DNA of 64,000 bases from Escherichia phage EPFV3-03/2025. The DNA lies in the sequence record PV435126.1; one strand, given 5' to 3'. This document shows, one piece after another, positions 1 to 36,497 of the stretch. Within the stretch, counting starts at the first letter, position 1; every line of letters starts with the position of its first letter. The notes under the pieces are model-generated. The model was not told the origin of the DNA and made no database searches. It was given only the letters and a program-made list of their open reading frames with translations. Position numbers and translations under genes: made by a program.

Positions 1-137
1 ATCCTATCGCTTACCGCTGCGGATTTAGCGACTACATCGACAGCTTGGATATTGAGGACGATGAAGAATATCAAGAATTGCAGGCAGAGCTGGAAGAAGT
101 GAAAGAGGAGCTTTCAGAGCTGGAAGAAAACGAGTAA
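1..137 (+). CDS. 3' end of an acidic coiled-coil-like protein (partial, start outside window)
   Basis: Open frame from window start to TAA at 135-137; translation ...EDDEEYQELQAELEEVKEELSELEENE. Confidence 0.4.
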   Translation, partial: PIAYRCGFSDYIDSLDIEDDEEYQELQAELEEVKEELSELEENE

Positions 138-200
138 AATTTATTTTTAGATGGCCTTGACTCTAGGGCCATCAATAAAGTAAACTTTACACTGTTAACA
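138..200. repeat. conserved intergenic element copy 1 (T-run + ATGGCC/GGCCAT hairpin + CAATAAAGTAAA)
   Basis: Near-identical to 3848-3910; diverged copy at 472-530; each directly follows a stop codon. Confidence 0.7.
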
Positions 201-225
201 CTGAACTGATGAGGAGTTAAAACCC

Positions 226-471
226 ATGGCAGCACTAATCACAAAATATTATGCGCCCACCAACACCAAAAGCGCCCGTATCATGGTAAAAGGCTTCGGA
301 CGTAAAAAGGTTTACGCCTGGGACTATTCCCTAGATATGGAAGACAATTATACCAACGTAATGACCGATTTTATTAATGATCTGAATAAACAGATCTTAA
401 CCGACTACAAAGTGACCGATATTGCTTACATAGGTGAAGGCGGGATCTGTTTTGTAGGCATTGTGAAATAG
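226..471 (+). CDS. hypothetical early protein (81 aa)
   Basis: ORF with GGAG RBS upstream of ATG. Confidence 0.5.
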   Translation: MAALITKYYAPTNTKSARIMVKGFGRKKVYAWDYSLDMEDNYTNVMTDFINDLNKQILTDYKVTDIAYIGEGGICFVGIVK

Positions 472-530
472 TTATTTTTTCGGTGGTCCTGGTTGCAGGG
501 CCATCTATAAAGATAATTTATTAACACCAT
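472..530. repeat. conserved intergenic element, diverged copy
   Basis: TTATTTTTT then hairpin TGGTCCTG/CAGGGCCA then TATAAAG, same layout as copies at 138 and 3848. Confidence 0.5.
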
Positions 531-547
531 GAAAGGAGAAAGTACAC

Positions 548-901
548 ATGATTAGCGGGGCTAGTTTTATTATTGGCGCTATTGCTACGGCTTTAATTGT
601 AAACAAGATCCAGGATAAAAAGGAAAGAGGAAGTACCGCCCTTGCAGAATATCCATTTTGGACATTTAACGATAACGAAGATTATATTATAAAGTATAAA
701 AATAAAGAAGGCGACCAAGTAACACCGCGACCGATCCCGGCTTACAAAATGCAGGAAACACTATACCGCTTGGAGGCGGGGGGCGCAAAAATTGTTGACT
801 TTTGGGGATACGACCACACAGATCAGGAAGTTATAAAGCGCCGTATCCGGGCTATTCAGGCCAATATTGAGGTTAACAAGGGGGGAATATATGAAAATTA
901 A
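548..901 (+). CDS. hypothetical membrane-anchored protein (117 aa)
   Basis: N-terminal hydrophobic helix SFIIGAIATALIV; RBS AAAGGAGA. Confidence 0.5.
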   Translation: MISGASFIIGAIATALIVNKIQDKKERGSTALAEYPFWTFNDNEDYIIKYKNKEGDQVTPRPIPAYKMQETLYRLEAGGAKIVDFWGYDHTDQEVIKRRIRAIQANIEVNKGGIYEN

Positions 902-1088
902 TTTCGAGAAAATTGTAAAGCGCCCTCATGATTCCGAAGAGTTGCCAGAACGCCGACAGCGCAACAATAAACTGAATAGGCCAAAAAGGTTTGGGAAGAT
1001 CTGGCGGAATCATTATGATCGTAAATTGCCCGGCCTACTTTTGGAACGTGAACGACAGGCAGAACGATACCGCCATAAAGACAAATAA
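891..1088 (+). CDS. hypothetical basic protein (66 aa)
   Basis: In-frame ATG at 891 with G-rich RBS 8 nt upstream (ORF track frame from 867); terminator follows. Confidence 0.4.
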   Translation: MKINFEKIVKRPHDSEELPERRQRNNKLNRPKRFGKIWRNHYDRKLPGLLLERERQAERYRHKDK

Positions 1089-1307: not shown

Positions 1308-1568
1308 ATGCGTAAATTAAAAAATTTTGATAAAGTTGATGTTATCCTGAATAATTTTTACTACTGCAACAACAAGGCTATTTGGTGGCGTGATAGTTCC
1401 ACCGATAAAGTCAGGGCGCGCTTTCTCCAAGGTCACTGGCAAGGCCGCCCAGTGATTAAAATCATGGGGCAATTGGTAGCGTTTAAAAATTGCCGCCGTG
1501 TTGATGACGTTGAAGAGATTTTAAACATTTTGCGCCACAATAATTTAAAAAATAGTGTTGACAAGTAA
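1308..1568 (+). CDS. hypothetical early protein (86 aa)
   Basis: ORF with AAAGGAG RBS downstream of consensus promoter. Confidence 0.55.
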   Translation: MRKLKNFDKVDVILNNFYYCNNKAIWWRDSSTDKVRARFLQGHWQGRPVIKIMGQLVAFKNCRRVDDVEEILNILRHNNLKNSVDK

Positions 1569-1585
1569 ATCTCAATAAGTATAAT
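1558..1585 (+). promoter_or_regulatory. sigma70-like promoter
   Basis: TTGACA, 16-nt spacer, TATAAT; followed by GGCGGGA/TCCCGCC 5' hairpin and RBS. Confidence 0.6.
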
Positions 1586-1642
1586 TAAACACACAGGCGG
1601 GAAAACTTCCCGCCACTAACAAAGAAAACAGGAGAAAATATC

Positions 1643-3512: not shown

Positions 3513-3648
3513 GAACGGCCCCCGATCATGGGGGCCTATCTTTAAAAAAAATTCTTCCGGGGTGTTGCAATCCGGTCCGGAATGTGGATAATAACAATCA
3601 ACGGGGAGCTAATCCCCACCACCACAAAAACCAGAAAGGAGAAACAAA

Positions 3649-3849
3649 ATGAGCAACAATATCCGCGTTATTAACTTCAAAAAAGAAGAAAAAATTGCCG
3701 TGCTGATTGACGGTCAAGAAATCTTCAAGGGCGACTATGAAGATCATCAAACGGCGATTAGTATCACTCGCGTAATTGGTTATCATAATTTCTACCCCCA
3801 AGGCGCTGAGGCAGCAGTTAAACGAATCAAAGAGATTGTAGGCCTGTAA
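3649..3849 (+). CDS. hypothetical protein (66 aa)
   Basis: ORF with AAAGGAGAAAC RBS. Confidence 0.55.
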   Translation: MSNNIRVINFKKEEKIAVLIDGQEIFKGDYEDHQTAISITRVIGYHNFYPQGAEAAVKRIKEIVGL

Positions 3850-3910
3850 AATTTATTTTTAGATGGCCTTGACTTCAGGGCCATCAATAAAGTAAATTTA
3901 AACCCTGTTA
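3848..3910. repeat. conserved intergenic element copy 2
   Basis: AATTTATTTTTAGATGGCCTTGACTTCAGGGCCATCAATAAAGTAAA, near-identical to 138-200. Confidence 0.7.
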
Positions 3911-5394: not shown

Positions 5395-5640
5395 ATGAAA
5401 AGCAATAAAGGTTATAACGGTTACAAAAACAAAACTCATTGGAATGTAAGCCTTTGGATTAATAACGATGAGTCATTGTACCGGTTGGCCCAAAGCTTTA
5501 TTAACGCTAATGCTAATCGTAATGATGCGGCGCGGGATATGATGCTTTTTCTGGAGCTAACCGGACAAGATAAGACCCCGGACGGCTTCAAGTACAGCAC
5601 TACGGCGATCCGCGCCGCTATGGTTGGAATGAAACACTAA
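5395..5640 (+). CDS. hypothetical protein (81 aa)
   Basis: ORF with AGAAGAGGTAAACACCATG RBS. Confidence 0.55.
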   Translation: MKSNKGYNGYKNKTHWNVSLWINNDESLYRLAQSFINANANRNDAARDMMLFLELTGQDKTPDGFKYSTTAIRAAMVGMKH

Positions 5641-5710
5641 TAGCCGCCTTACCCTGGGGCCGTGGCAGCGGCCCTATGAATAAGGTTACTAACAGAAGAG
5701 AATAAACACC

Positions 5711-6880: not shown

Positions 6881-6909
6881 TTGACATCTGCCAGGTGGTG
6901 GGGTAACAT
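6881..6909 (+). promoter_or_regulatory. sigma70-like promoter
   Basis: TTGACA, 17-nt spacer, TAACAT. Confidence 0.5.
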
Positions 6910-17270: not shown

Positions 17271-17525
17271 TTACAGCTCTACAATATCTGCATCTGACCC
17301 TGCCCCAAAGGCATAATAGGACTCTTTCCCGAAATAATATTCAGGTGCACCAGCGGCGATCAGGTCTGATCCTAAGATAAACACCACGTTGTGGCCTACA
17401 TAACTATGATGTTGCCGCACAGGATCATCCCACGGTAACCCTTCAAAGTATACCGCAGGAACGACCTTTCCCTTCAGGAAGGATTGTCCCAAGTAGACGT
17501 TAGAATCAAGAATTTTAACCTTCAT
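17271..17525 (-). CDS. small acidic protein, paralog family A
   Basis: MKVKILDSNVYLGQ...GKVV...ILGSDLIAAGA closely matches 17515-17742. Confidence 0.6.
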   Translation of the reverse strand: MKVKILDSNVYLGQSFLKGKVVPAVYFEGLPWDDPVRQHHSYVGHNVVFILGSDLIAAGAPEYYFGKESYYAFGAGSDADIVEL

Positions 17526-17742
17526 GATCGTCCTCCACTATCTCTACATCCTCACCTAGGGCAAAGTTGTAGGTCCACTGACTGTCAAAGCAGTCCTGAG
17601 ATGCACCAGCGGCAATAAGATCTGCTCCTTTTATTTTTAAAAGGTCAGGGTAATCTTCGTTAGGGACAGCAGTAAACACTTTTCCTACTAAAGGCTCCTG
17701 ACCAATATAGAAGCTTGAATCTAAAACTTTAACTTTCATCAA
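17515..17742 (-). CDS. small acidic protein, paralog family A
   Basis: MKVKVLDSSFYIGQ...GKVF...IKGADLIAAGA; adjacent tandem duplicate of 17271-17525. Confidence 0.6.
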   Translation of the reverse strand: MMKVKVLDSSFYIGQEPLVGKVFTAVPNEDYPDLLKIKGADLIAAGASQDCFDSQWTYNFALGEDVEIVEDDHEG

Positions 17743-29667: not shown

Positions 29668-30756
29668 TTAAAACTCCCAAATTTCTTCTTCAGCGTCGTT
29701 AACAGTTGTGTTGACGCGGTAGTCAGTGTTCGACATTTCTTGGTTCGCCGTCTGTTGCAATGAAGGTTTCATCCACACCTGCATAAACGGTAGCGGGTCC
29801 TTTGTTGGCGGCACAAAGTCTTTGTCGATGTCGTAATAATCATAAATCGGTGAGCAGTTATAGTCAACCCATTCTTTAAGCAACGGTGAATTAAGACCTA
29901 TAATCGCTCTTCCTTCGCTGAAAATATAGTCACTCCAACCGTACTCCTTGGTCCGCACTTCGTCAAGAATTTCTTTTAACTCACCCTTAATCTCAAGAAA
30001 GCTTTGCTCCCATGCAGGATCATCAAGCAGGATATCGATGATAGCAAAATCACCTTTCGAATGCAGCATTTCATCAAGCATAATTTTTTGAACAAGTTGT
30101 GCCACTTGAACAAAAATACCTTGCTCAGCTACTGCGAACGTACATGCAAAACTTGCAATAAACTCAATACTTTCTAGAGCTAAAAGTGCAAAAAGTGCTC
30201 TAAGGATACATTTCCGTACAACATCTTCTTCAACACTGGAAGGATCCAGTCGGTATTTTGCACCAATAACCTCAAGCTCTTGCATATATTTGACAATAAC
30301 TCCAGATCTGCTCAGCACGTTCTGGTTTTCCTGAATCTCTTCTATAATCTCGCGAGCATTAGGAAGGCATTGTCTAACAATCTCTGAGTAAGTTAGTGCA
30401 TGAAGAACCTCAATCTCAGACTGCTTCATCAACAAGGTGAAAAGCTCACTGTTGGTGATAAATGGTGAAAACAGACAAATGATAGATCTTGCTGCAACAC
30501 TGTCTGCCTCCCATTGCCACATCAGTGTCTGCACCATCACATCGTAAGTTGACTTTGAGCATGTTACGAAATCAGAAATAGACTGTGACAAATCTACTTC
30601 GTCCTCTGCCCAATCTTGTTCTTTTTGTTTTTTGTATAGTTCAAACAGCTGTGGATACTTTTTGTTAATAGAGTCGTACATCCCCATCTGCTGTCCTAGA
30701 AACAGCGGATAATCACCAGTTTTATGAGCAGTGTTCTCAGTATTAAATACGGACAT
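29668..30756 (-). CDS. nrdB: ribonucleotide reductase class Ia beta subunit
   Basis: LESIEFIASFACTFAVAE...DEMLH resembles the NrdB di-iron/tyrosyl region. Confidence 0.9.
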   Translation of the reverse strand: MSVFNTENTAHKTGDYPLFLGQQMGMYDSINKKYPQLFELYKKQKEQDWAEDEVDLSQSISDFVTCSKSTYDVMVQTLMWQWEADSVAARSIICLFSPFITNSELFTLLMKQSEIEVLHALTYSEIVRQCLPNAREIIEEIQENQNVLSRSGVIVKYMQELEVIGAKYRLDPSSVEEDVVRKCILRALFALLALESIEFIASFACTFAVAEQGIFVQVAQLVQKIMLDEMLHSKGDFAIIDILLDDPAWEQSFLEIKGELKEILDEVRTKEYGWSDYIFSEGRAIIGLNSPLLKEWVDYNCSPIYDYYDIDKDFVPPTKDPLPFMQVWMKPSLQQTANQEMSNTDYRVNTTVNDAEEEIWEF

Positions 30757-30794
30757 TATTCTACCTCTAAAATGGGGCCGAAGCCCCTTTTAAA

Positions 30795-33110
30795 TTACAG
30801 TGCACAACTTTCGCAATACGGATCTTCAACTGAACTATCTGCAATCAAAGGATAGTTCTTTCTTGTTTCATCTTCAGCCTGTTTCTTCGCGTGAAGCTCC
30901 TCTGTCAAAGAGTCACCAGCACCAACCCTAGAGTTTAAGTAATACCATGTCTTCATCCCGAATTTAGTAGCACGGATAAGATACCCAAGCTGCTCCTTCA
31001 TTGAAATTTTACCATCTTTCAACTTGGTGTAATCAATATATAGGTCAGCACTGATTGCCTGTCCTGTGAATTTTTGAATCACAGCATACATATCAATCAT
31101 GTCGTTAGTATCAACGTCCCAAGCCGAGGTATAATACTCTTTCAGTTCATCATATTCAGGAACGATAAACAGCACCTGTCCTTGTGGCGACTTTTTAAAG
31201 ATAATGTGCTCACGGACAGGATAAACCCCGTTAGTTGTGTTTGTTGCCAACGAGGAGCTTTCATTAGGCATATATGCTTCAAGAACGCTATTACGTAGTC
31301 CACCGTTTTCAATAATTTCTTTACGTAACCCTTCCCAATCCTGCTTAAGAGAAGGATCTTTCACCACACTATCGACCTCTTTGTTATAAGTGTCGATTGG
31401 TAACCAACCCTCTGGGTATTTTGTTTTATGCATCCACTCGCAGACACCACGCTCTTTTGCCAATCGTAAACTTGCCTTATGCAAGCTGTAGCTGTGAAGC
31501 TCTGCAAGATCGTGAACAAGCTGTTTACTTTCAGGAGACCCGTAAGCAACCTTGTGGCTGGCAATAAAATGTGCAATATTGGTAAGGCCAACCCCGATGG
31601 ATCTGCGTTTTTTAACAGTGCTCTCCATATTTTCATACGGATATGTCATGATTTCCATAACATTGTCAATCATAAGCACAGTGTAGTATGCAACATCCTC
31701 ATACTCCTCTGGGGTAACCCTTCCAGCTACAAGGGATGATAGGAAGCACAATGCAACCTCACCATCATCAGCATCGTACTTGAAGATATTACGCATATCT
31801 GAATAGCCTTTTGTCGGAAGGGCTATCTCTGCACACAGATTACTTGAATAGATTACATCTTTAAAAGGTGTATGCCTATTCATCTCATCTGTCCAGTACA
31901 CATACAGCCTGCCTACCTCGGTACGCTGCGTGATCAGTTCAACAGCAAGGTCTCTAGCACGGATCCATGTTTTAGGAATGCTGTCATCTTTAGCGATACG
32001 ATCAACCTCTGCATCAAACTCCTCCATAGACATGGTGAAGATACCCTCGTGCAGTTGAGGTGCGTGCTTATAAGAAACAAGCATCCAATCTAAATTCTTA
32101 GCCACACGGTTGATAAATGATCTATTAATACCTATAGAGTAGTCCATAGTGTTGATTCTTTTTGAAGCAACAGTCATAGGGTTTCTCAAACGGATCAGTT
32201 CATCAATCTGTGGATCTAGCGCAAGGAATGATACCGTTGCCGAACCTCCACGTGATTGTTGTCTATTCTCCTTAACCCCAGCATCAATACCTCGATAATA
32301 TGGAAGCTTGCCCATATGTTTAATAGTGTTACCACGAACACCATCACCTGCAGATCTTGATGATAGATAGTAGCCAATACCTGCTTGGTTAACCGTCATT
32401 GTGTACGCAACTTCACGTGCCACACCAATAGATTTTGCTGTATCGTCAGCTTTTATTACGCAACAAGATGCATACCCTGTCTTACCTGTGCGTAGACCGT
32501 TTAAGTACGGTGTCGGGGCATTAATCTTCAAGTCCGACAGATAAGTGTATAATTTTACAACATCGTTGATACGACGTTCTTTCGGCATATTCTTCATGAC
32601 AGCCATTGCTATCCCCATAAACATCATCTGGGGAGATTCAAACAGGGTGTCTTTAAGAGTATCCTTGATCCCGTATTTGTCGCGAAACTGTTTAAGGACT
32701 GCATAGCCATAACCGAGATCTTTACTGTGATCAACAACAGCGTCTAAAGTGTTTAACTCGGTAAAGCTATAACCCATATCCTCCCAATACCCTTTATCAA
32801 CCATGGTATTGTAAAATGAGGGTAAGGAAGGGATCTTTGTAAATCCTCCAAAAGCCTCTTTATAAATCTGACCGATAAGAACACGACCAGCCATACGAGA
32901 ATGAGCTTCGTCTTTACGGCTAACACAGGAGTCTATGATAGCTTGGTTAACTTCTTTGGTTGTACACCCATCATACAGCCGTTTGTATGCATCAAGTGCA
33001 ATATGTGACCAATTGCCGTTACCGTCGTCACCGAAAATAGCTGCCTTATTTAAACGTTCTGGGTCGAATGCCACTTCACATCCGTTGCTTTTAATTACCT
33101 TGGTGATCAA
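30795..33110 (-). CDS. nrdA: ribonucleotide reductase class Ia alpha subunit
   Basis: 771 aa; NLCAEI active-site motif; C-terminal CESCAL. Confidence 0.95.
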   Translation of the reverse strand: MITKVIKSNGCEVAFDPERLNKAAIFGDDGNGNWSHIALDAYKRLYDGCTTKEVNQAIIDSCVSRKDEAHSRMAGRVLIGQIYKEAFGGFTKIPSLPSFYNTMVDKGYWEDMGYSFTELNTLDAVVDHSKDLGYGYAVLKQFRDKYGIKDTLKDTLFESPQMMFMGIAMAVMKNMPKERRINDVVKLYTYLSDLKINAPTPYLNGLRTGKTGYASCCVIKADDTAKSIGVAREVAYTMTVNQAGIGYYLSSRSAGDGVRGNTIKHMGKLPYYRGIDAGVKENRQQSRGGSATVSFLALDPQIDELIRLRNPMTVASKRINTMDYSIGINRSFINRVAKNLDWMLVSYKHAPQLHEGIFTMSMEEFDAEVDRIAKDDSIPKTWIRARDLAVELITQRTEVGRLYVYWTDEMNRHTPFKDVIYSSNLCAEIALPTKGYSDMRNIFKYDADDGEVALCFLSSLVAGRVTPEEYEDVAYYTVLMIDNVMEIMTYPYENMESTVKKRRSIGVGLTNIAHFIASHKVAYGSPESKQLVHDLAELHSYSLHKASLRLAKERGVCEWMHKTKYPEGWLPIDTYNKEVDSVVKDPSLKQDWEGLRKEIIENGGLRNSVLEAYMPNESSSLATNTTNGVYPVREHIIFKKSPQGQVLFIVPEYDELKEYYTSAWDVDTNDMIDMYAVIQKFTGQAISADLYIDYTKLKDGKISMKEQLGYLIRATKFGMKTWYYLNSRVGAGDSLTEELHAKKQAEDETRKNYPLIADSSVEDPYCESCAL

Positions 33111-33337
33111 TTTGCTTCCTCCACTTCATCAACGTATTTATCAAGGCAGGTATCAGTATCTTGTTGGATAAAGGTATCCTCTTCTACAGAGATATTTATA
33201 ATTTTACCTGTATATTCATCATAATAAACATCATCATACATTTTAATATCGTTTGTCAGACCGTTGAACCAAAGCCAACCAACATACTCTGCCCGACTTG
33301 CAAAACCAAGATCCTTCCACTTGGAGTTATGACTCAT
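33107..33337 (-). CDS. hypothetical protein
   Basis: ORF ending 4 nt into nrdA start; start at internal MSHNSKW. Confidence 0.45.
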   Translation of the reverse strand: MSHNSKWKDLGFASRAEYVGWLWFNGLTNDIKMYDDVYYDEYTGKIINISVEEDTFIQQDTDTCLDKYVDEVEEAN

Positions 33338-33347
33338 CTTCACCACC

Positions 33348-33848
33348 TTAGCTTTCAATACCGAATAATTTTTCCAGGCGATGCAGATCTTCAAAATTGA
33401 AAGGTTCATCAACAATATGAATATCTTCAGCCTTTTCAGATTGTTTTGTATACTTTCTCACATTAACACGATCTTCTACTGGGATATCATACGGAAGATC
33501 TTGAACAAGCATTGCCTCACCGGGTGCTTTATCTACATCTAAAATATCTACACCGTTATACATCTGCGGGTATCTAAAGTCTGCACGCATGACACCAGCA
33601 AATACATCTGCCTTTCGATAATGGGTTGGCTTATTTTTGCATCTAACGTTTTTTCCACGAAGAACATCAATATTTTTTAAATCAAACCCTACGGCGAAGA
33701 GTGCAGCTCGGAGACCGTTTCGTGTGCGAACGTTAAATCCGGGAACAGTAGATAGGAAATCTAAAGTAACTGAAATAAATGTCTTTTTAGGAATCATAAC
33801 ATTACTCATATCTGTCTCCATTTCTGGCTCACCAACAAAGTGAGCCAT
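33348..33848 (-). CDS. hypothetical protein (166 aa)
   Basis: ORF within nucleotide-metabolism block. Confidence 0.5.
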   Translation of the reverse strand: MAHFVGEPEMETDMSNVMIPKKTFISVTLDFLSTVPGFNVRTRNGLRAALFAVGFDLKNIDVLRGKNVRCKNKPTHYRKADVFAGVMRADFRYPQMYNGVDILDVDKAPGEAMLVQDLPYDIPVEDRVNVRKYTKQSEKAEDIHIVDEPFNFEDLHRLEKLFGIES

Positions 33849-33907
33849 TATTATAGATTATCTGATGCTATTAGTCAACACAAAAGTTACCTATCGCTGT
33901 GATAGGA

Positions 33908-34891
33908 TTAACCTTTCATGAAGTGGTTATTAAGCAGCTGTCTGTGCTGAACCCACCCACAAAAGTTGGCAGACCAGAATTTACCATCACGGTCTTGATG
34001 GGTTACACCTTCCTGCCAAACACAGCTGTCCTGTGTGATTTCACATGAAGACAGGTAGTAGTTTAAACGTTCCATTGCGTTATCGTGATCCATAGGTGTT
34101 GCCTGATGCTCGTAAGGGCTTGCATGAATACGATCCCCACCGATCAATTTTTTAGCCACACTGTCTGCCTTTTCAAACGTGCTGTCAATATTGCGATAAG
34201 ATACTTGTGCACAGCAACTAGCACTAATAGACAGAGCTTCTCCAGTGTCGAGAATACATAGCTTCCCTTCTGTGTCACGTACAGCATAGTTAAACTCACC
34301 GTCCAAATAAACGTGCTCCACATATGGGGTGTGCCATTGACCCGGTTTAAGGATTTCAGGAGTGCTATTTACAAGAGCCTCCCACATACAATTAGCCAAC
34401 ATCTGAATCGTAGGATCCGCATCGTGCCAGCAACGGAGGTGGAAAAAATTATTCCACTCGGTGCTTGTTACAACTGTTTTCATGCGTTGAAACGGCTCTA
34501 CTAGGCGGTTACATACTTGCTTATGGTAACCAGCAAGGGCGAACTTCTCTGCATGCCAAGCGGCGTTTTTTGCAGCTTCTTTCCAAAACTCTTCAGGGGT
34601 TAGCTCCATGTCAGTGTATTCTACACGGATCTTTTGATCGTGTTCCCCTCCATCTTCCATTCCTCGCTTATTTACACCGAAGCGAACTGGCATTGCCGGA
34701 TTCTCCACAATCTGCTGCAGCATCTTGCTGACAGGCACTGCACGAGAAGACATAGCGTTTCGGCTGAACATTCGATGTGTCATAAGCTCTGAGTGAATAA
34801 TTCGAGGATATTCTAGCTCAAAAGTGGTGATACGCTTACCTTTCTCTGAAATGCTGTCGGCAATAATCTTTGCAGTGCACAGTTTTAGCAT
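33908..34891 (-). CDS. thyX: flavin-dependent thymidylate synthase (ThyX-like)
   Basis: THRMFSRNAMSSRA resembles ThyX RHR-x7-S signature; 327 aa, longer than typical. Confidence 0.55.
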   Translation of the reverse strand: MLKLCTAKIIADSISEKGKRITTFELEYPRIIHSELMTHRMFSRNAMSSRAVPVSKMLQQIVENPAMPVRFGVNKRGMEDGGEHDQKIRVEYTDMELTPEEFWKEAAKNAAWHAEKFALAGYHKQVCNRLVEPFQRMKTVVTSTEWNNFFHLRCWHDADPTIQMLANCMWEALVNSTPEILKPGQWHTPYVEHVYLDGEFNYAVRDTEGKLCILDTGEALSISASCCAQVSYRNIDSTFEKADSVAKKLIGGDRIHASPYEHQATPMDHDNAMERLNYYLSSCEITQDSCVWQEGVTHQDRDGKFWSANFCGWVQHRQLLNNHFMKG

Positions 34892-35091
34892 TATTTAGCT
34901 CTCCTTGTTTTAATTTTGGAAATTTCGTCTGGGTTTATGTTGGCCTTAAATGCGAGGTATCTGTTAAACATATCGGAGCACATATCTTGGGTGATCCTAG
35001 AGGCATACACCAGCTTACCGCCCAGATCATACACCTCTAGCCAGTCACCGTATCTGACTACAGGATCGCCACCTTTAGAACATCTGCCCAT
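34891..35091 (-). CDS. hypothetical protein (66 aa)
   Basis: Coupled ORF. Confidence 0.45.
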   Translation of the reverse strand: MGRCSKGGDPVVRYGDWLEVYDLGGKLVYASRITQDMCSDMFNRYLAFKANINPDEISKIKTRRAK

Positions 35092-35092
35092 T

Positions 35093-35686
35093 TCAAATAC
35101 CTTCTAAAAACTTCCCTATTTTATACCAGCTGTTAGCGGTATAGTCAACACTAACCTTCAACTCCTCGAATTGCTCATAAGGAGTGTCTTTTAAGATTTT
35201 AATAACTTCAGGACGTGAAGCGAATTGGTTCAGGTATTCATGCCTGTCGTCAATTATAACATCTACAGCCACATTACCTTTGAAATGTGTGGCGTAGAAG
35301 CCGTGACCCTGGGTGTGATCGTCCAGATCCATAAAATCGCTGGTCCAACGCTTTAAGAACCTTGATTTAGATGCAAGGTGACCTTTCTTACATACAGAGA
35401 TAAATGCAAGCTTGTGACCACGAGCCACCAAATCTTTCATAACCTCAATAGCCCCCTCTTCAGGCTTAAGAAAGTCGTAGAGGAACGGGTCACTCCAGAA
35501 ATCAAAAGGCCCTATGATGTTTTCTTTGGGGCGATCAGGCCAATACTTTGACAGATCGTAATACATCAGTCCGTTAGAAGGTTTAGCGACTGTCTTGCTG
35601 GCTGGACCATATAAACGCTCTAGCCACTCCCACCATGCTGTTCCTGAGTCTACCAGTGTTAAATCTACATCAATTCCGATCAGCAT
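35093..35686 (-). CDS. HAD-superfamily hydrolase, putative nucleotidase
   Basis: N-terminal GIDVDLTLVD (DxDxT motif I). Confidence 0.45.
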   Translation of the reverse strand: MLIGIDVDLTLVDSGTAWWEWLERLYGPASKTVAKPSNGLMYYDLSKYWPDRPKENIIGPFDFWSDPFLYDFLKPEEGAIEVMKDLVARGHKLAFISVCKKGHLASKSRFLKRWTSDFMDLDDHTQGHGFYATHFKGNVAVDVIIDDRHEYLNQFASRPEVIKILKDTPYEQFEELKVSVDYTANSWYKIGKFLEGI

Positions 35687-35691
35687 TGTTC

Positions 35692-36294
35692 TCAGCCCTC
35701 TTTAGCATCAATATACTTGCACACAATCTCAGATGCGCACTCCCAAGGAGCTCCCTCAGGGTTAATAACATCAAACTCGATACCTTTTATCCCGTTCTTC
35801 TCTAGGCTAAGGTAAGTTCTGGAATCATTTCCCCAATCATATCCTGCACGGTGGATACGGAACAGTAGAAGATCGCCACCTGTGCTGTATGCGTACTCGC
35901 CAAGGCATGCCAGCTCCTCTTTGAAGCCACCATCGGAGTAAACAACAACCCCTTTACCTTCAGGGAAATCTTTCTTCAAGGATGCGACTGCGGCCTTACC
36001 GAAAGCATCTTCACCAAAGATAGGTTTAATCAGATTTTCACTACAATGGATCATCCATTCTCGCGGAGAAACATGCTTGCCGTCTATAATTAAGAACGGG
36101 CACGGTTCTTCTTTGTAGCGGCGATCATAAAGTGCATTCCACAACTGTGGTGAAATACCAGCTGCCTTAATTGCCACACTGAATAGCATTTCCTTTACCT
36201 CGCGGTGATGCGAGTTTGGAATGGCTTCCAACAAAAGATCTGCGATATGGTCTTTTCCAGAACTTGGTGGAGCATTAAGAACAATAATATCCAT
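35692..36294 (-). CDS. P-loop NTPase, putative (deoxy)nucleotide kinase
   Basis: N-terminal Walker A LNAPPSSGKD. Confidence 0.45.
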   Translation of the reverse strand: MDIIVLNAPPSSGKDHIADLLLEAIPNSHHREVKEMLFSVAIKAAGISPQLWNALYDRRYKEEPCPFLIIDGKHVSPREWMIHCSENLIKPIFGEDAFGKAAVASLKKDFPEGKGVVVYSDGGFKEELACLGEYAYSTGGDLLLFRIHRAGYDWGNDSRTYLSLEKNGIKGIEFDVINPEGAPWECASEIVCKYIDAKEG

Positions 36295-36497
36295 TAAAAA
36301 CCTCCGTGGTATTCTTCAACTGCATCAATAATACTTTTACACTTATCTACCAGCTCGTTAGCTACTACAGCATCGTCTTCCCAAACAGCCTCCTCAATCT
36401 GATCAAGCAATGATCGCATCTTATTCATCATTTCTGGGATAAAGCTTTCTGAAAAGCTGTCTGGAATTGTTAACTCTGGTGTCATTGCGGTCTCCAA
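36294..36497 (-). CDS. hypothetical acidic protein (67 aa)
   Basis: Coupled ORF. Confidence 0.45.
   Translation of the reverse strand: METAMTPELTIPDSFSESFIPEMMNKMRSLLDQIEEAVWEDDAVVANELVDKCKSIIDAVEEYHGGF

What the first reader, a model, noticed from the sequence alone, without database searches (positions are those of the whole stretch)
138..200. Near-identical 60-bp intergenic element repeated after three early genes
Copies at 138-200 and 3848-3910 are near-identical: AATTTATTTTTAGATGGCCTTGACTYYAGGGCCATCAATAAAGTAAA. A diverged copy at 472-530 has the same T-run, hairpin and TAAAG layout. Each follows a stop codon directly. The T-run precedes rather than follows the hairpin, so it is not a canonical terminator on either strand, and the TTGACT inside the loop has no properly spaced -10. 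It may be a protein or RNase recognition site or a phage-specific promoter.
Basis: seen in the sequence. Interest (0 to 1): 0.5.

Follow-up and report, generated by a model that had tools for sequence, protein, structure and literature searches.

The report
Repeated early-gene RNA hairpin with embedded promoter
Three copies of a ~60-base element between early genes of an rV5-like E. coli phage fold into a conserved two-part RNA hairpin shaped like the RNase III cutting sites of phage T7; two of the three also carry host-type promoter boxes, which makes it a new but not unprecedented kind of phage regulatory cassette.

Summary
The window is a Vequintavirus (rV5-like) genome. It holds exactly three copies (134-190, 470-518, 3849-3899), all on the sense strand of early genes. 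A fourth copy lies just upstream of the window in relatives.

The T-run is not a misplaced terminator tail. It pairs with the AAAG-UAAA that follows the hairpin. The result is a two-part RNA hairpin: an A-U lower stem that contains the upstream stop codon, a 2x3 internal loop (UA or UC / NAU), a 10-bp G-C upper stem and a tetraloop. Forty-six distinct copies from relatives keep 90% of pairs, with compensatory changes. G-U pairs and model scores favour the + strand. It is not a terminator and matches no Rfam family.

Its geometry matches the folds I obtained for T7 early RNase III sites, especially R1. I therefore propose RNase III cleavage after NAU. That is inferred, not shown.

Copies 1 and 2 also carry TTGACT-18-TAAAYT. 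In distant relatives TTGACA stays 17 nt from TAAACT although the stem tip was rebuilt, so an embedded sigma-70 promoter is likely in about half the lineages.

Copies also mark recombination junctions. The closest known analogues are the PeSL cassettes of T4-type phages.

The parts
134..147 (+). Copy 1, 5' strand of the lower stem (the T-run). It includes the stop codon TAA at 135-137 of the upstream gene, the homologue of rV5 ORF192.
   Evidence: MFE fold of 132-196: 134-138 and 140-147 pair with 186-190 and 177-184. ORF 45..137 ends here.
148..149 (+). Copy 1, 5' side of the internal loop (UA).
   Evidence: Fold. Conserved as UA or UC in all 46 distinct relatives.
150..173 (+). Copy 1, upper stem of 10 bp (150-159 with 164-173) and tetraloop ACUC (160-163). 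The -35-like TTGACT lies at 157-162.
   Evidence: Upper-stem pairs are 98.7% maintained across relatives.
174..176 (+). Copy 1, 3' side of the internal loop (AAU). Proposed RNase III cut after U176.
   Evidence: Fold. NAU is kept in 43 of the 46 distinct rows. The cut position is inferred by analogy with the T7 R1 and R1.1 folds.
177..190 (+). Copy 1, 3' strand of the lower stem (AAAGUAAA, C, UUUAC). The -10-like TAAACT lies at 181-186.
   Evidence: Compensatory changes in the lower stem.
470..518 (+). Copy 3 (type B). Lower stem 470-479 with 509-518, internal loop UC 480-481 and UAU 506-508, upper stem 482-491 with 496-505, tetraloop GUUG 492-495. The upstream stop codon TAG is at 469-471. 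There is no good -35 (CTGGTT); the -10-like GATAAT is at 512-517.
   Evidence: Fold of 466-528: -22.4 kcal/mol, z -4.77. Model hit of 68.3 bits.
3849..3899 (+). Copy 2. Lower stem 3849-3859 with 3889-3899, internal loop UA 3860-3861 and AAU 3886-3888, upper stem 3862-3871 with 3876-3885, tetraloop 3872-3875. The upstream stop codon TAA is at 3847-3849. TTGACT is at 3869-3874 and TAAATT at 3893-3898.
   Evidence: Fold of 3844-3908: -23.6 kcal/mol, z -5.86. Model hit of 75.2 bits. Promoter scan.
191..228 (+). Leader of the downstream gene after copy 1. The predicted start of a transcript from the embedded promoter is near 193, with GGAG at 210-213 and ATG at 226.
   Evidence: Sequence. The transcript start is an inference from the position of the -10.

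Best explanation
The element is a composite regulatory cassette of the early (host-polymerase) transcription units of rV5-like phages. Its conserved core acts as RNA. Read-through transcripts fold into a two-part hairpin: an A-U lower stem formed by the T-run and the AAAG-UAAA flank, a 2x3 internal loop, a 10-bp G-C upper stem and a tetraloop. This hairpin has the size and geometry of E. coli RNase III single-cut processing signals. I propose that host RNase III cuts after the conserved NAU, at window 176/177, 508/509 and 3888/3889. That would separate the upstream short-gene message, which would end in a protective 3' hairpin, from the downstream message. In copies 1 and 2, and in about half of the lineages in relatives, the same DNA also carries a sigma-70 promoter: -35 in the tip of the hairpin, -10 in the 3' strand of the lower stem, and the T-run in the position of an UP element. 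That promoter would restart transcription about 30-35 nt before the next gene. As direct repeats, the copies also serve as recombination points for cassette loss, gain and exchange. Shown here: the repeat, the conserved and covarying strand-specific structure, the lack of a terminator tail, the promoter-box pattern and the recombination junctions. Inferred: RNase III cleavage, promoter activity and any effect on expression.
For: Structure: all three window copies and five divergent relatives (the four L130/L129 loci plus L130:9599) fold to the same lower stem / 2x3 loop / upper stem architecture. Energies are -22 to -29 kcal/mol and z-scores -3.2 to -6.1 where shuffles were run. Two further divergent variants (L130:6560 and L121:2767) keep both stems but have a larger apical or internal loop. 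The + strand folds better than the - strand (-23.0 against -18.7, and -23.6 against -16.0). Covariation: in 31 sequences 90.6% of cells pair, against 37-51% when partners are slid. There are 48 double-change cells against 24.5 +/- 4.2 in shuffles, with 0 of 500 shuffles reaching the observed value. In 46 distinct sequences the figures are 90.0% paired and 81 double-change cells against 36.8 +/- 5.5. Upper-stem changes are mostly one-sided G-U substitutions that are tolerated only on the + strand. One divergent copy (L130:9599) shows a compensatory C-G to U-A change. Model scores are about 75 bits on + and 38 bits on -. RNase III likeness: folded T7 early sites have 9-12 bp upper stems with loops of 3-5 nt. 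T7 R1 folds as a 5-bp lower stem, a UA/AAU 2x3 internal loop, a 9-bp upper stem and a tetraloop, which is the same topology and the same loop letters as copies 1 and 2. R1.1 and copies 1 and 2 share the UU/AG step next to the loop-closing pair. [quoted passage not shown] Promoter: TTGACT-18-TAAACT and TTGACT-18-TAAATT. TTGACA is kept 17 nt from TAAACT in three orthologues whose stem tips differ (L129:2563, L196:979 and L130:6560, the last with an A7 tract inserted just upstream). In KKE7M the element is followed, 11 nt after its -10, by the same GC hairpin / ACAAAG / ribosome-binding-site module that follows the canonical promoters of this region at 9-10 nt. Recombination: ECP26, ime and one metagenome contig lack exactly the ~630 bp between copy 4 and copy 1 and carry a chimeric element. 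A Justusliebigvirus carries the promoter-ORF192-element module with its junction inside the element.
Against: No transcript-end data exist for any rV5-like phage, so neither cleavage nor initiation is shown. RNase III proximal-box rules were not evaluated. The T7 cleavage coordinates I used come from memory of Dunn and Studier 1983, because the held T7 records do not list RNase III sites. The seven basal upper-stem pairs are far more conserved in sequence than RNase III should require, which could instead indicate a sequence-specific protein or gene conversion between copies. The promoter match is only 9 of 12; matches of 9 of 12 or better are common by chance (26 found against 17.3 expected in the 8 kb scanned). 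The -10-like letters are partly forced by pairing with the T-run. Copy 3 and about half of the lineages lack a -35. Two of three orthologues of one lineage have TCGACA.
Confidence: 0.45

Rival explanations
1. The conserved hairpin works as RNA but not through RNase III. It could be a barrier to 3' exonucleases or a stability and decay-boundary element, with single-strand cuts by RNase E in the A/U-rich flanks. It could also be a pause or attenuation signal that lowers read-through into the next gene.
For: The same structural and covariation evidence applies. The stem is stable (-22 to -24 kcal/mol). Each copy sits directly after a short early gene; copies 1 and 2 (after ORF192 and ORF179) follow the first gene downstream of a strong promoter. 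PeSL stem-loops of RB49 reduced downstream reporter expression (PMC2839356).
Against: A pure barrier would not need a conserved 2x3 internal loop with fixed letters or a constant 10-bp upper stem. The geometry matches the T7 RNase III site folds closely. There is no U-tract for intrinsic termination.
Confidence: 0.2
2. It is simply a host sigma-70 early promoter with an UP-like T/A tract. On this view the inverted repeat is incidental, or is an operator for a phage or host DNA-binding protein that shuts the promoter off.
For: TTGACT-18-TAAAYT. TTGACA is conserved at 17 nt spacing in remodelled orthologues. PhagePromoter calls the sites in phage Gotham. The KKE7M downstream module also fits.
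Against: Copy 3 and about half of the lineages keep the whole hairpin but have no -35. The spacing between the two arms varies from 7 to at least 20 nt, which does not suit a dimeric duplex-DNA binder. The lower stem covaries and uses G-U pairs valid only on the + strand. The spacer and flanks are conserved far beyond what a promoter needs.
Confidence: 0.15
3. It is the recognition site of a sequence-specific phage-encoded RNA-binding protein or nuclease, such as a translational or stability regulator. The protein would read the invariant base of the upper stem together with the internal loop.
For: GAUGGCC/GGCCAUC and NAUAAAG are almost invariant across copies whose flanking genes are unrelated or only 68-78% identical. 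The conserved part is the stem base and the loop, not the tip.
Against: No candidate protein was identified. The flanking genes are all of unknown function. T7 RNase III sites show comparable sequence conservation among themselves (AAGGUC...GUGGCCUU) without a dedicated protein. Gene conversion between copies could also keep the sequences alike.
Confidence: 0.1
4. It is a Rho-independent terminator, as two copies are annotated in phage Murica, or a promoter for a phage-specific polymerase or sigma factor.
For: Murica annotates the equivalents of 472-530 and 3848-3910 as terminators. A G-C-rich hairpin is present.
Against: The hairpin is followed by AAUAAAG on the + strand and by UAAAAAUAAA on the - strand, and no terminator-like site is called on either strand. 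The rV5 paper lists none of these sites among 20 terminators and reports only sigma-70-type promoters plus an extended -10-like late motif.
Confidence: 0.04

Closest known systems
PeSL (promoter-early stem-loop) cassettes of T4-type phages RB49/phi1, PST/T4 and nt-1/KVP40 (Arbiol et al. 2010, PMC2839356; Comeau et al. 2014, PMC4122927)
   Same: Both are repeated intergenic cassettes among small early genes of unknown function. Both begin at the upstream stop codon in an A/T-rich stretch. Both carry sigma-70-type -35 and -10 boxes, with a stem-loop that may overlap the -35 and uses G-T pairs. Both end with the ribosome-binding site and start codon of the next gene. In both, copies mark deletions and cassette exchanges.
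   Different: The host phage belongs to Vequintavirinae, not the T4 group. The stem-loop here is a two-part, sequence-conserved hairpin with an internal loop and no U-tract, whereas PeSL stem-loops are described as variable polyG/polyC terminators. There are only 4 copies per genome. Only part of the copies have a good -35. Promoter, attenuator and mini-circle activity are untested here.
RNase III processing signals of the T7 early region (R0.3, R0.5, R1, R1.1, R1.3)
   Same: Both sit between early cistrons transcribed by the host polymerase. Both have upper stems of about 9-12 bp with small loops (3-5 nt), an internal loop and a lower stem, and the sites within one genome share sequence. The T7 R1 fold has the same 2x3 UA/AAU internal loop. 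R1.1 shares the UU/AG step under the loop (PMC1540722). Weak E. coli promoters B and C are annotated within about 25-50 nt of R0.5 and R1 (for the promoters; site positions are from memory).
   Different: There is no sequence homology. The lower stem here is almost pure A-U and contains the stop codon. A promoter lies inside the hairpin rather than next to it. Cleavage is not demonstrated.
Bidirectional intrinsic terminators (A-tract, hairpin, U-tract)
   Same: Both have a G-C hairpin whose A/T-rich flanks are complementary and extend the stem.
   Different: The polarity is inverted: the U-tract is 5' and the A-rich flank is 3'. Neither strand therefore gives a hairpin followed by a U-run.

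Membership tests
PeSL cassette (T4-type phages) | Intergenic, and begins at the stop codon of the upstream gene within an A/T-rich stretch | tested here: met
   The stop codons at 135-137, 469-471 and 3847-3849 lie in the lower stem. In all 46 distinct relatives a stop codon sits 10-13 nt before the upper stem.
PeSL cassette (T4-type phages) | Sigma-70-like -35 and -10 boxes about 17 bp apart | tested here: inconclusive
   Copies 1 and 2 have TTGACT-18-TAAACT and TTGACT-18-TAAATT, each 9 of 12. Copy 3 has CTGGTT-17-GATAAT, so no real -35. About half of the lineages in relatives lack a -35.
PeSL cassette (T4-type phages) | A stable stem-loop overlapping or adjoining the promoter boxes | tested here: met
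   The -35 lies in the tip of the upper stem and the -10 lies in the 3' strand of the lower stem.
PeSL cassette (T4-type phages) | Repeated and clustered among small variable early genes | tested here: met
   rV5 has four copies within about 4.4 kb of its early region and none elsewhere in the genome. The window has three. All flanking genes belong to PHROG families of unknown function.
PeSL cassette (T4-type phages) | Copies act as recombination points for deletion, insertion or exchange of the flanked genes | tested here: met
   ECP26, ime and contig L120 lack the ~630 bp between copies 4 and 1 and carry a chimeric element. KKE7M has a module junction inside the element. This is comparative evidence only, and the three deletions may be a single event.
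PeSL cassette (T4-type phages) | Measured promoter activity and terminator or attenuator activity of the stem-loop | not testable with these tools
   Reporter assays are needed. The sequence has no U-tract.
E. coli RNase III single-cut processing signal (T7 R-site type) | About two helical turns of double-stranded RNA, possibly by stacking of two helices | tested here: met
   The upper stem of 10 bp plus a lower stem of 8-13 bp gives 18-23 bp. The requirement is stated in PMC1540722.
E. coli RNase III single-cut processing signal (T7 R-site type) | An internal loop at the target site, about 11-13 nt from the apical loop, that limits cleavage to one strand | tested here: met
   A 2x3 loop lies directly below the 10-bp upper stem in copies 1-3. 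The T7 R1 fold has the same arrangement. This shows geometry only, not cleavage.
E. coli RNase III single-cut processing signal (T7 R-site type) | Favourable distal-box and proximal-box base pairs, with no antideterminants | tested here: inconclusive
   Copies 1 and 2 have the UU/AG step under the loop-closing pair, as R1.1 does. Copy 3 has CU/AG. The proximal box was not evaluated.
E. coli RNase III single-cut processing signal (T7 R-site type) | Cleavage that depends on RNase III, in vivo or in vitro | not testable with these tools
   No transcript-end data exist for rV5-like phages.
Intrinsic (Rho-independent) terminator | A U-rich tract immediately 3' of a G-C-rich hairpin on the transcribed strand | tested here: not met
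   The hairpin is followed by AAUAAAG on the + strand and by UAAAAAUAAA on the - strand. The terminator scan does not list it, although it finds the genuine terminators at 1097, 2747, 3517 and 4297.
Any described RNA family (Rfam 15) | A match at or above the family's gathering score | tested here: not met
   The best overlapping hits (rhtB sRNA) score 23 bits against a gathering score of 55, at E about 2.

The most novel reading that the evidence does not exclude
One 60-nt cassette encodes four functions at once: the stop codon of one gene, an RNase III-type processing hairpin for read-through RNA, a sigma-70 promoter, and a portable recombination site. The promoter's -35 sits in the tip of the hairpin and its -10 sits in the 3' strand of the lower stem. 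The recombination site moves promoter-gene modules between phage subfamilies. Because the stop codon lies in the lower stem, a terminating ribosome would melt that stem, so cleavage would be coupled to translation of the upstream gene.
Probability: 0.25. Interest if true: 0.6.

Novelty: new variant of a known kind. Interest (0 to 1): 0.45.

Why it matters
rV5-like phages are widely isolated and are used against pathogenic E. coli, yet their early gene regulation is unmapped. The rV5 genome paper lists none of these sites, and later annotations call the same sequence a terminator in one phage and a promoter in another. The analysis resolves that conflict by showing a covarying, strand-specific RNA structure that is not a terminator. 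It gives exact nucleotides to test for RNase III processing and for transcript starts. It also extends the idea of promoter/stem-loop cassettes that shuffle early genes from T4-type phages to an unrelated myovirus group. If confirmed, the element would also be a compact insulator and restart part for synthetic operons.

Tried and rejected
- A 15-base pattern (GGGCCATCNATAAAG) scanned over viral contigs gave more than 120 mostly chance hits. Longer two-arm patterns were needed.
- A T-run plus two-arm pattern without ATAAAG gave about 30 unrelated hits, including a true bidirectional terminator of another phage.
- Rfam gave no family.
- Literature searches found no transcriptome or end-mapping study of rV5-like phages.
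- A protein search with the ORF191 homologue, meant to locate the region in other genera, found only unrelated siphoviruses and Pseudomonas phages.
- Both held T7 records lack RNase III site features, so the cleavage coordinates could not be verified.
- The terminator reading was rejected because there is no U-tract.
- A dimeric duplex-DNA operator was rejected because the spacing between the arms varies from 7 to at least 20 nt and G-U pairs are used.
- A host origin was rejected: there is no match in 5,426 complete E. coli genomes.
- The 5.5-kb deletion in rV5_ev146 was checked and is not bounded by the element.

Full report
Identity of the window. The first 6 kb match 277 phage records at 80-95% identity. 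Nearly all are Vequintavirus, the rV5-like E. coli myoviruses of about 137 kb. The + strand of the window corresponds to the minus strand of rV5, within its early leftward transcription unit. The genes around the element are small proteins of unknown function.

The repeat finder groups 134-187, 466-519 (67% identical) and 3846-3899 (94%) into one family. The two-arm stem pattern matches exactly at 150-173, 482-505 and 3862-3885, against 0.64 matches expected by chance even with 3 mismatches allowed. A covariance model built from relatives finds only these three sites in the 64 kb (68-75 bits); the next hit scores 14.7 bits at E 1.5. The complete rV5 genome has four copies, after ORF194, ORF192, ORF191 and ORF179. 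The fourth lies about 630 nt before the start of this window. The element occurs in 120 phage records. It is absent from 5,426 complete E. coli genomes and matches no Rfam family. The rV5 genome paper lists it neither among its 33 promoters nor among its 20 terminators. Murica annotates two copies as terminators, and Gotham annotates the same places as predicted promoters.

What the T-run is. Folding shows that the T-run pairs with the AAAG-UAAA that follows the hairpin. Every copy forms the same two-part hairpin. It has a lower stem of 8-13 mostly A-U and G-U pairs, an internal loop of 2 nt (UA or UC) opposite 3 nt (NAU), a 10-bp G-C-rich upper stem and a tetraloop. Energies are -22.4 to -23.6 kcal/mol, with z-scores of -4.8 to -6.1 against shuffles. 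The opposite strand folds less well, at -18.7 and -16.0 kcal/mol. The stop codon of the upstream gene lies inside the lower stem in all copies. No other local structure in the first 8 kb has this architecture.

The structure is conserved by selection. Divergent copies were recovered from uncultured rV5-like contigs of 136-141 kb, whose neighbouring genes are only 68-78% identical or unrelated. In a MAFFT alignment of 31 sequences, 90.6% of cells pair, against 37-51% when the partners are slid by 1-3 columns. There are 48 cells with changes on both sides, against 24.5 +/- 4.2 in shuffles (0 of 500 reach the observed value). Eight lower-stem pairs show compensatory changes, for example U-A / G-U / A-U / G-C at one position. 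With 46 distinct sequences aligned to the model, the figures are 90.0% paired and 81 double-change cells against 36.8 +/- 5.5. That second alignment leans towards the model. Changes in the seven basal upper-stem pairs are only one-sided (A-U to G-U, C-G to U-G), which works only on the + strand. The one double change in the 46-row count lies at an inner pair near the tip. A more distant copy, L130:9599, shows a C-G to U-A compensation. The distance between the two arms ranges from 7 to at least 20 nt. That variation fits a hairpin and does not fit a dimeric protein bound to duplex DNA. I conclude that the conserved object is a hairpin in the sense RNA.

It is not a terminator. The hairpin is followed by AAUAAAG on the + strand and by UAAAAAUAAA on the - strand. 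The scan that picks up the genuine terminators at 1097, 2747, 3517 and 4297 does not list it on either strand.

What it most resembles as RNA. I folded the intergenic regions of the T7 early operon where the RNase III sites lie. The site positions are recalled from Dunn and Studier 1983, because the held T7 records do not annotate them. The T7 sites have upper stems of 9-12 bp with loops of 3-5 nt, and they share sequence with one another. T7 R1 folds as a 5-bp lower stem, a 2x3 internal loop with UA opposite AAU, a 9-bp upper stem and a tetraloop. That is the same topology and the same loop letters as copies 1 and 2. R1.1 has a UU/AG step under the loop-closing pair, as copies 1 and 2 do. Pertzev and Nicholson state that substrates typically span two helical turns. 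[quoted passage not shown] With a 10-bp upper stem plus a 3-nt loop strand, a cut after NAU would lie 13 nt from the tetraloop on the 3' strand. That is the expected offset for an 11-bp measure with a 2-nt stagger; this step is my inference. The proposal is therefore host RNase III cleavage at 176/177, 508/509 and 3888/3889.

The promoter layer. TTGACT at 157-162 and 3869-3874 is followed after 18 bp by TAAACT and TAAATT. On its own this is weak. Matches of 9 of 12 or better are common by chance (26 found against 17.3 expected in shuffles of the scanned 8 kb), and the -10 letters are partly dictated by pairing with the T-run. Relatives add support.
- In one lineage, three orthologues have very different stem tips: GGTCGGGTGTTGACACCAGGCC, GGTCGGGGGGTTGACACCAGGCC and GGCCTTGAAAAAAATAGTTGACACGGGGCC. 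All three keep TTGACA exactly 17 nt from TAAACT, and the third has an A7 tract inserted just upstream.
- Within Vequintavirus, the loop varies mainly at and after the sixth hexamer position (TTGAC followed by T, A or G).
- In the Justusliebigvirus KKE7M, the element is followed, 11 nt after its -10, by the same GC hairpin / ACAAAG / ribosome-binding-site module that follows the canonical promoters of this window at 9-10 nt.
- Against the promoter: copy 3 and the TGGCG-loop lineages have no -35, and two of three orthologues of another lineage read TCGACA.
I judge an embedded sigma-70 promoter likely for copies 1 and 2 (about 55%) and unlikely for copy 3.

The recombination layer. ECP26, ime and a metagenome contig lack exactly the ~630 bp between copy 4 and copy 1 (ORF193, promoter P192 and ORF192). 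They carry one chimeric element with the 5' flank of copy 4 and the 3' flank of copy 1. KKE7M, from a different subfamily, carries P192-ORF192-element at 89.8% identity, with the right-hand junction just after AATAAAGTAAA. The three deletions may stem from one event.

Comparison with known systems. The closest described class is the PeSL cassette of T4-type phages. These are repeated intergenic units that start at a stop codon in A/T-rich sequence. They hold sigma-70 boxes and a stem-loop that may overlap the -35, end at the next gene's start, and mediate cassette shuffling (PMC2839356 and PMC4122927). The present element meets most PeSL features. It differs in phage group, in having a conserved two-part hairpin without a U-tract, and in lacking a promoter in part of its copies. 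As RNA, it works most like the T7 early RNase III sites.

Verdict. This is a real, conserved cassette that has not been described for this phage group. It is a new variant of known kinds and not a new principle. Its structure is well supported. Its processing and promoter activities remain to be shown.

Noticed in passing
window 1558-1640, 2275-2356 and 3565-3648: Each canonical sigma-70 promoter of this region is followed, 9-10 nt after its -10, by a G-C hairpin without a U-tract (1596-1614, 2312-2332, 3603-3617). An A/C-rich stretch (ACAAAG in two of the three) and the ribosome-binding site come next. This looks like a standard 5' leader module, perhaps a 5' stabiliser. The same module follows the element in phage KKE7M.
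   Followed up: partly
window 5633-5696: Another stable two-part hairpin (-25.3 kcal/mol) lies after the gene that ends at 5640. It has a CCUUA/UAAGG lower stem around a GGGGCCG/CGGCCC upper stem. It is unrelated in sequence to the element and the model does not find it.
   Followed up: no
phage records MG0656xx: About 20 records named 'Campylobacter phage' with host Campylobacter jejuni are 93-97% identical to this E. coli Vequintavirus region. The host labels look doubtful.
   Followed up: no
L165 (rV5_ev146), junction at about 6895-6909: This rV5 derivative lacks about 5.5 kb of the early region (rV5 113,709 to 108,201), including copy 2 of the element. The deletion ends are not at element copies.
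   Followed up: partly
window 891-1088: Murica's annotators labelled the homologue of this 65-aa gene 'T7 gp1.1-like'. It lies in the operon just downstream of copy 3 of the element. PHROGs gives no function.
   Followed up: no
window 30481-36466 and 17343-17629: Two other short direct-repeat families turned up. D2 has three copies ending in CACTGTCTGCCT-like sequence, and D3 has two copies 256 nt apart. They are probably inside genes.
   Followed up: no
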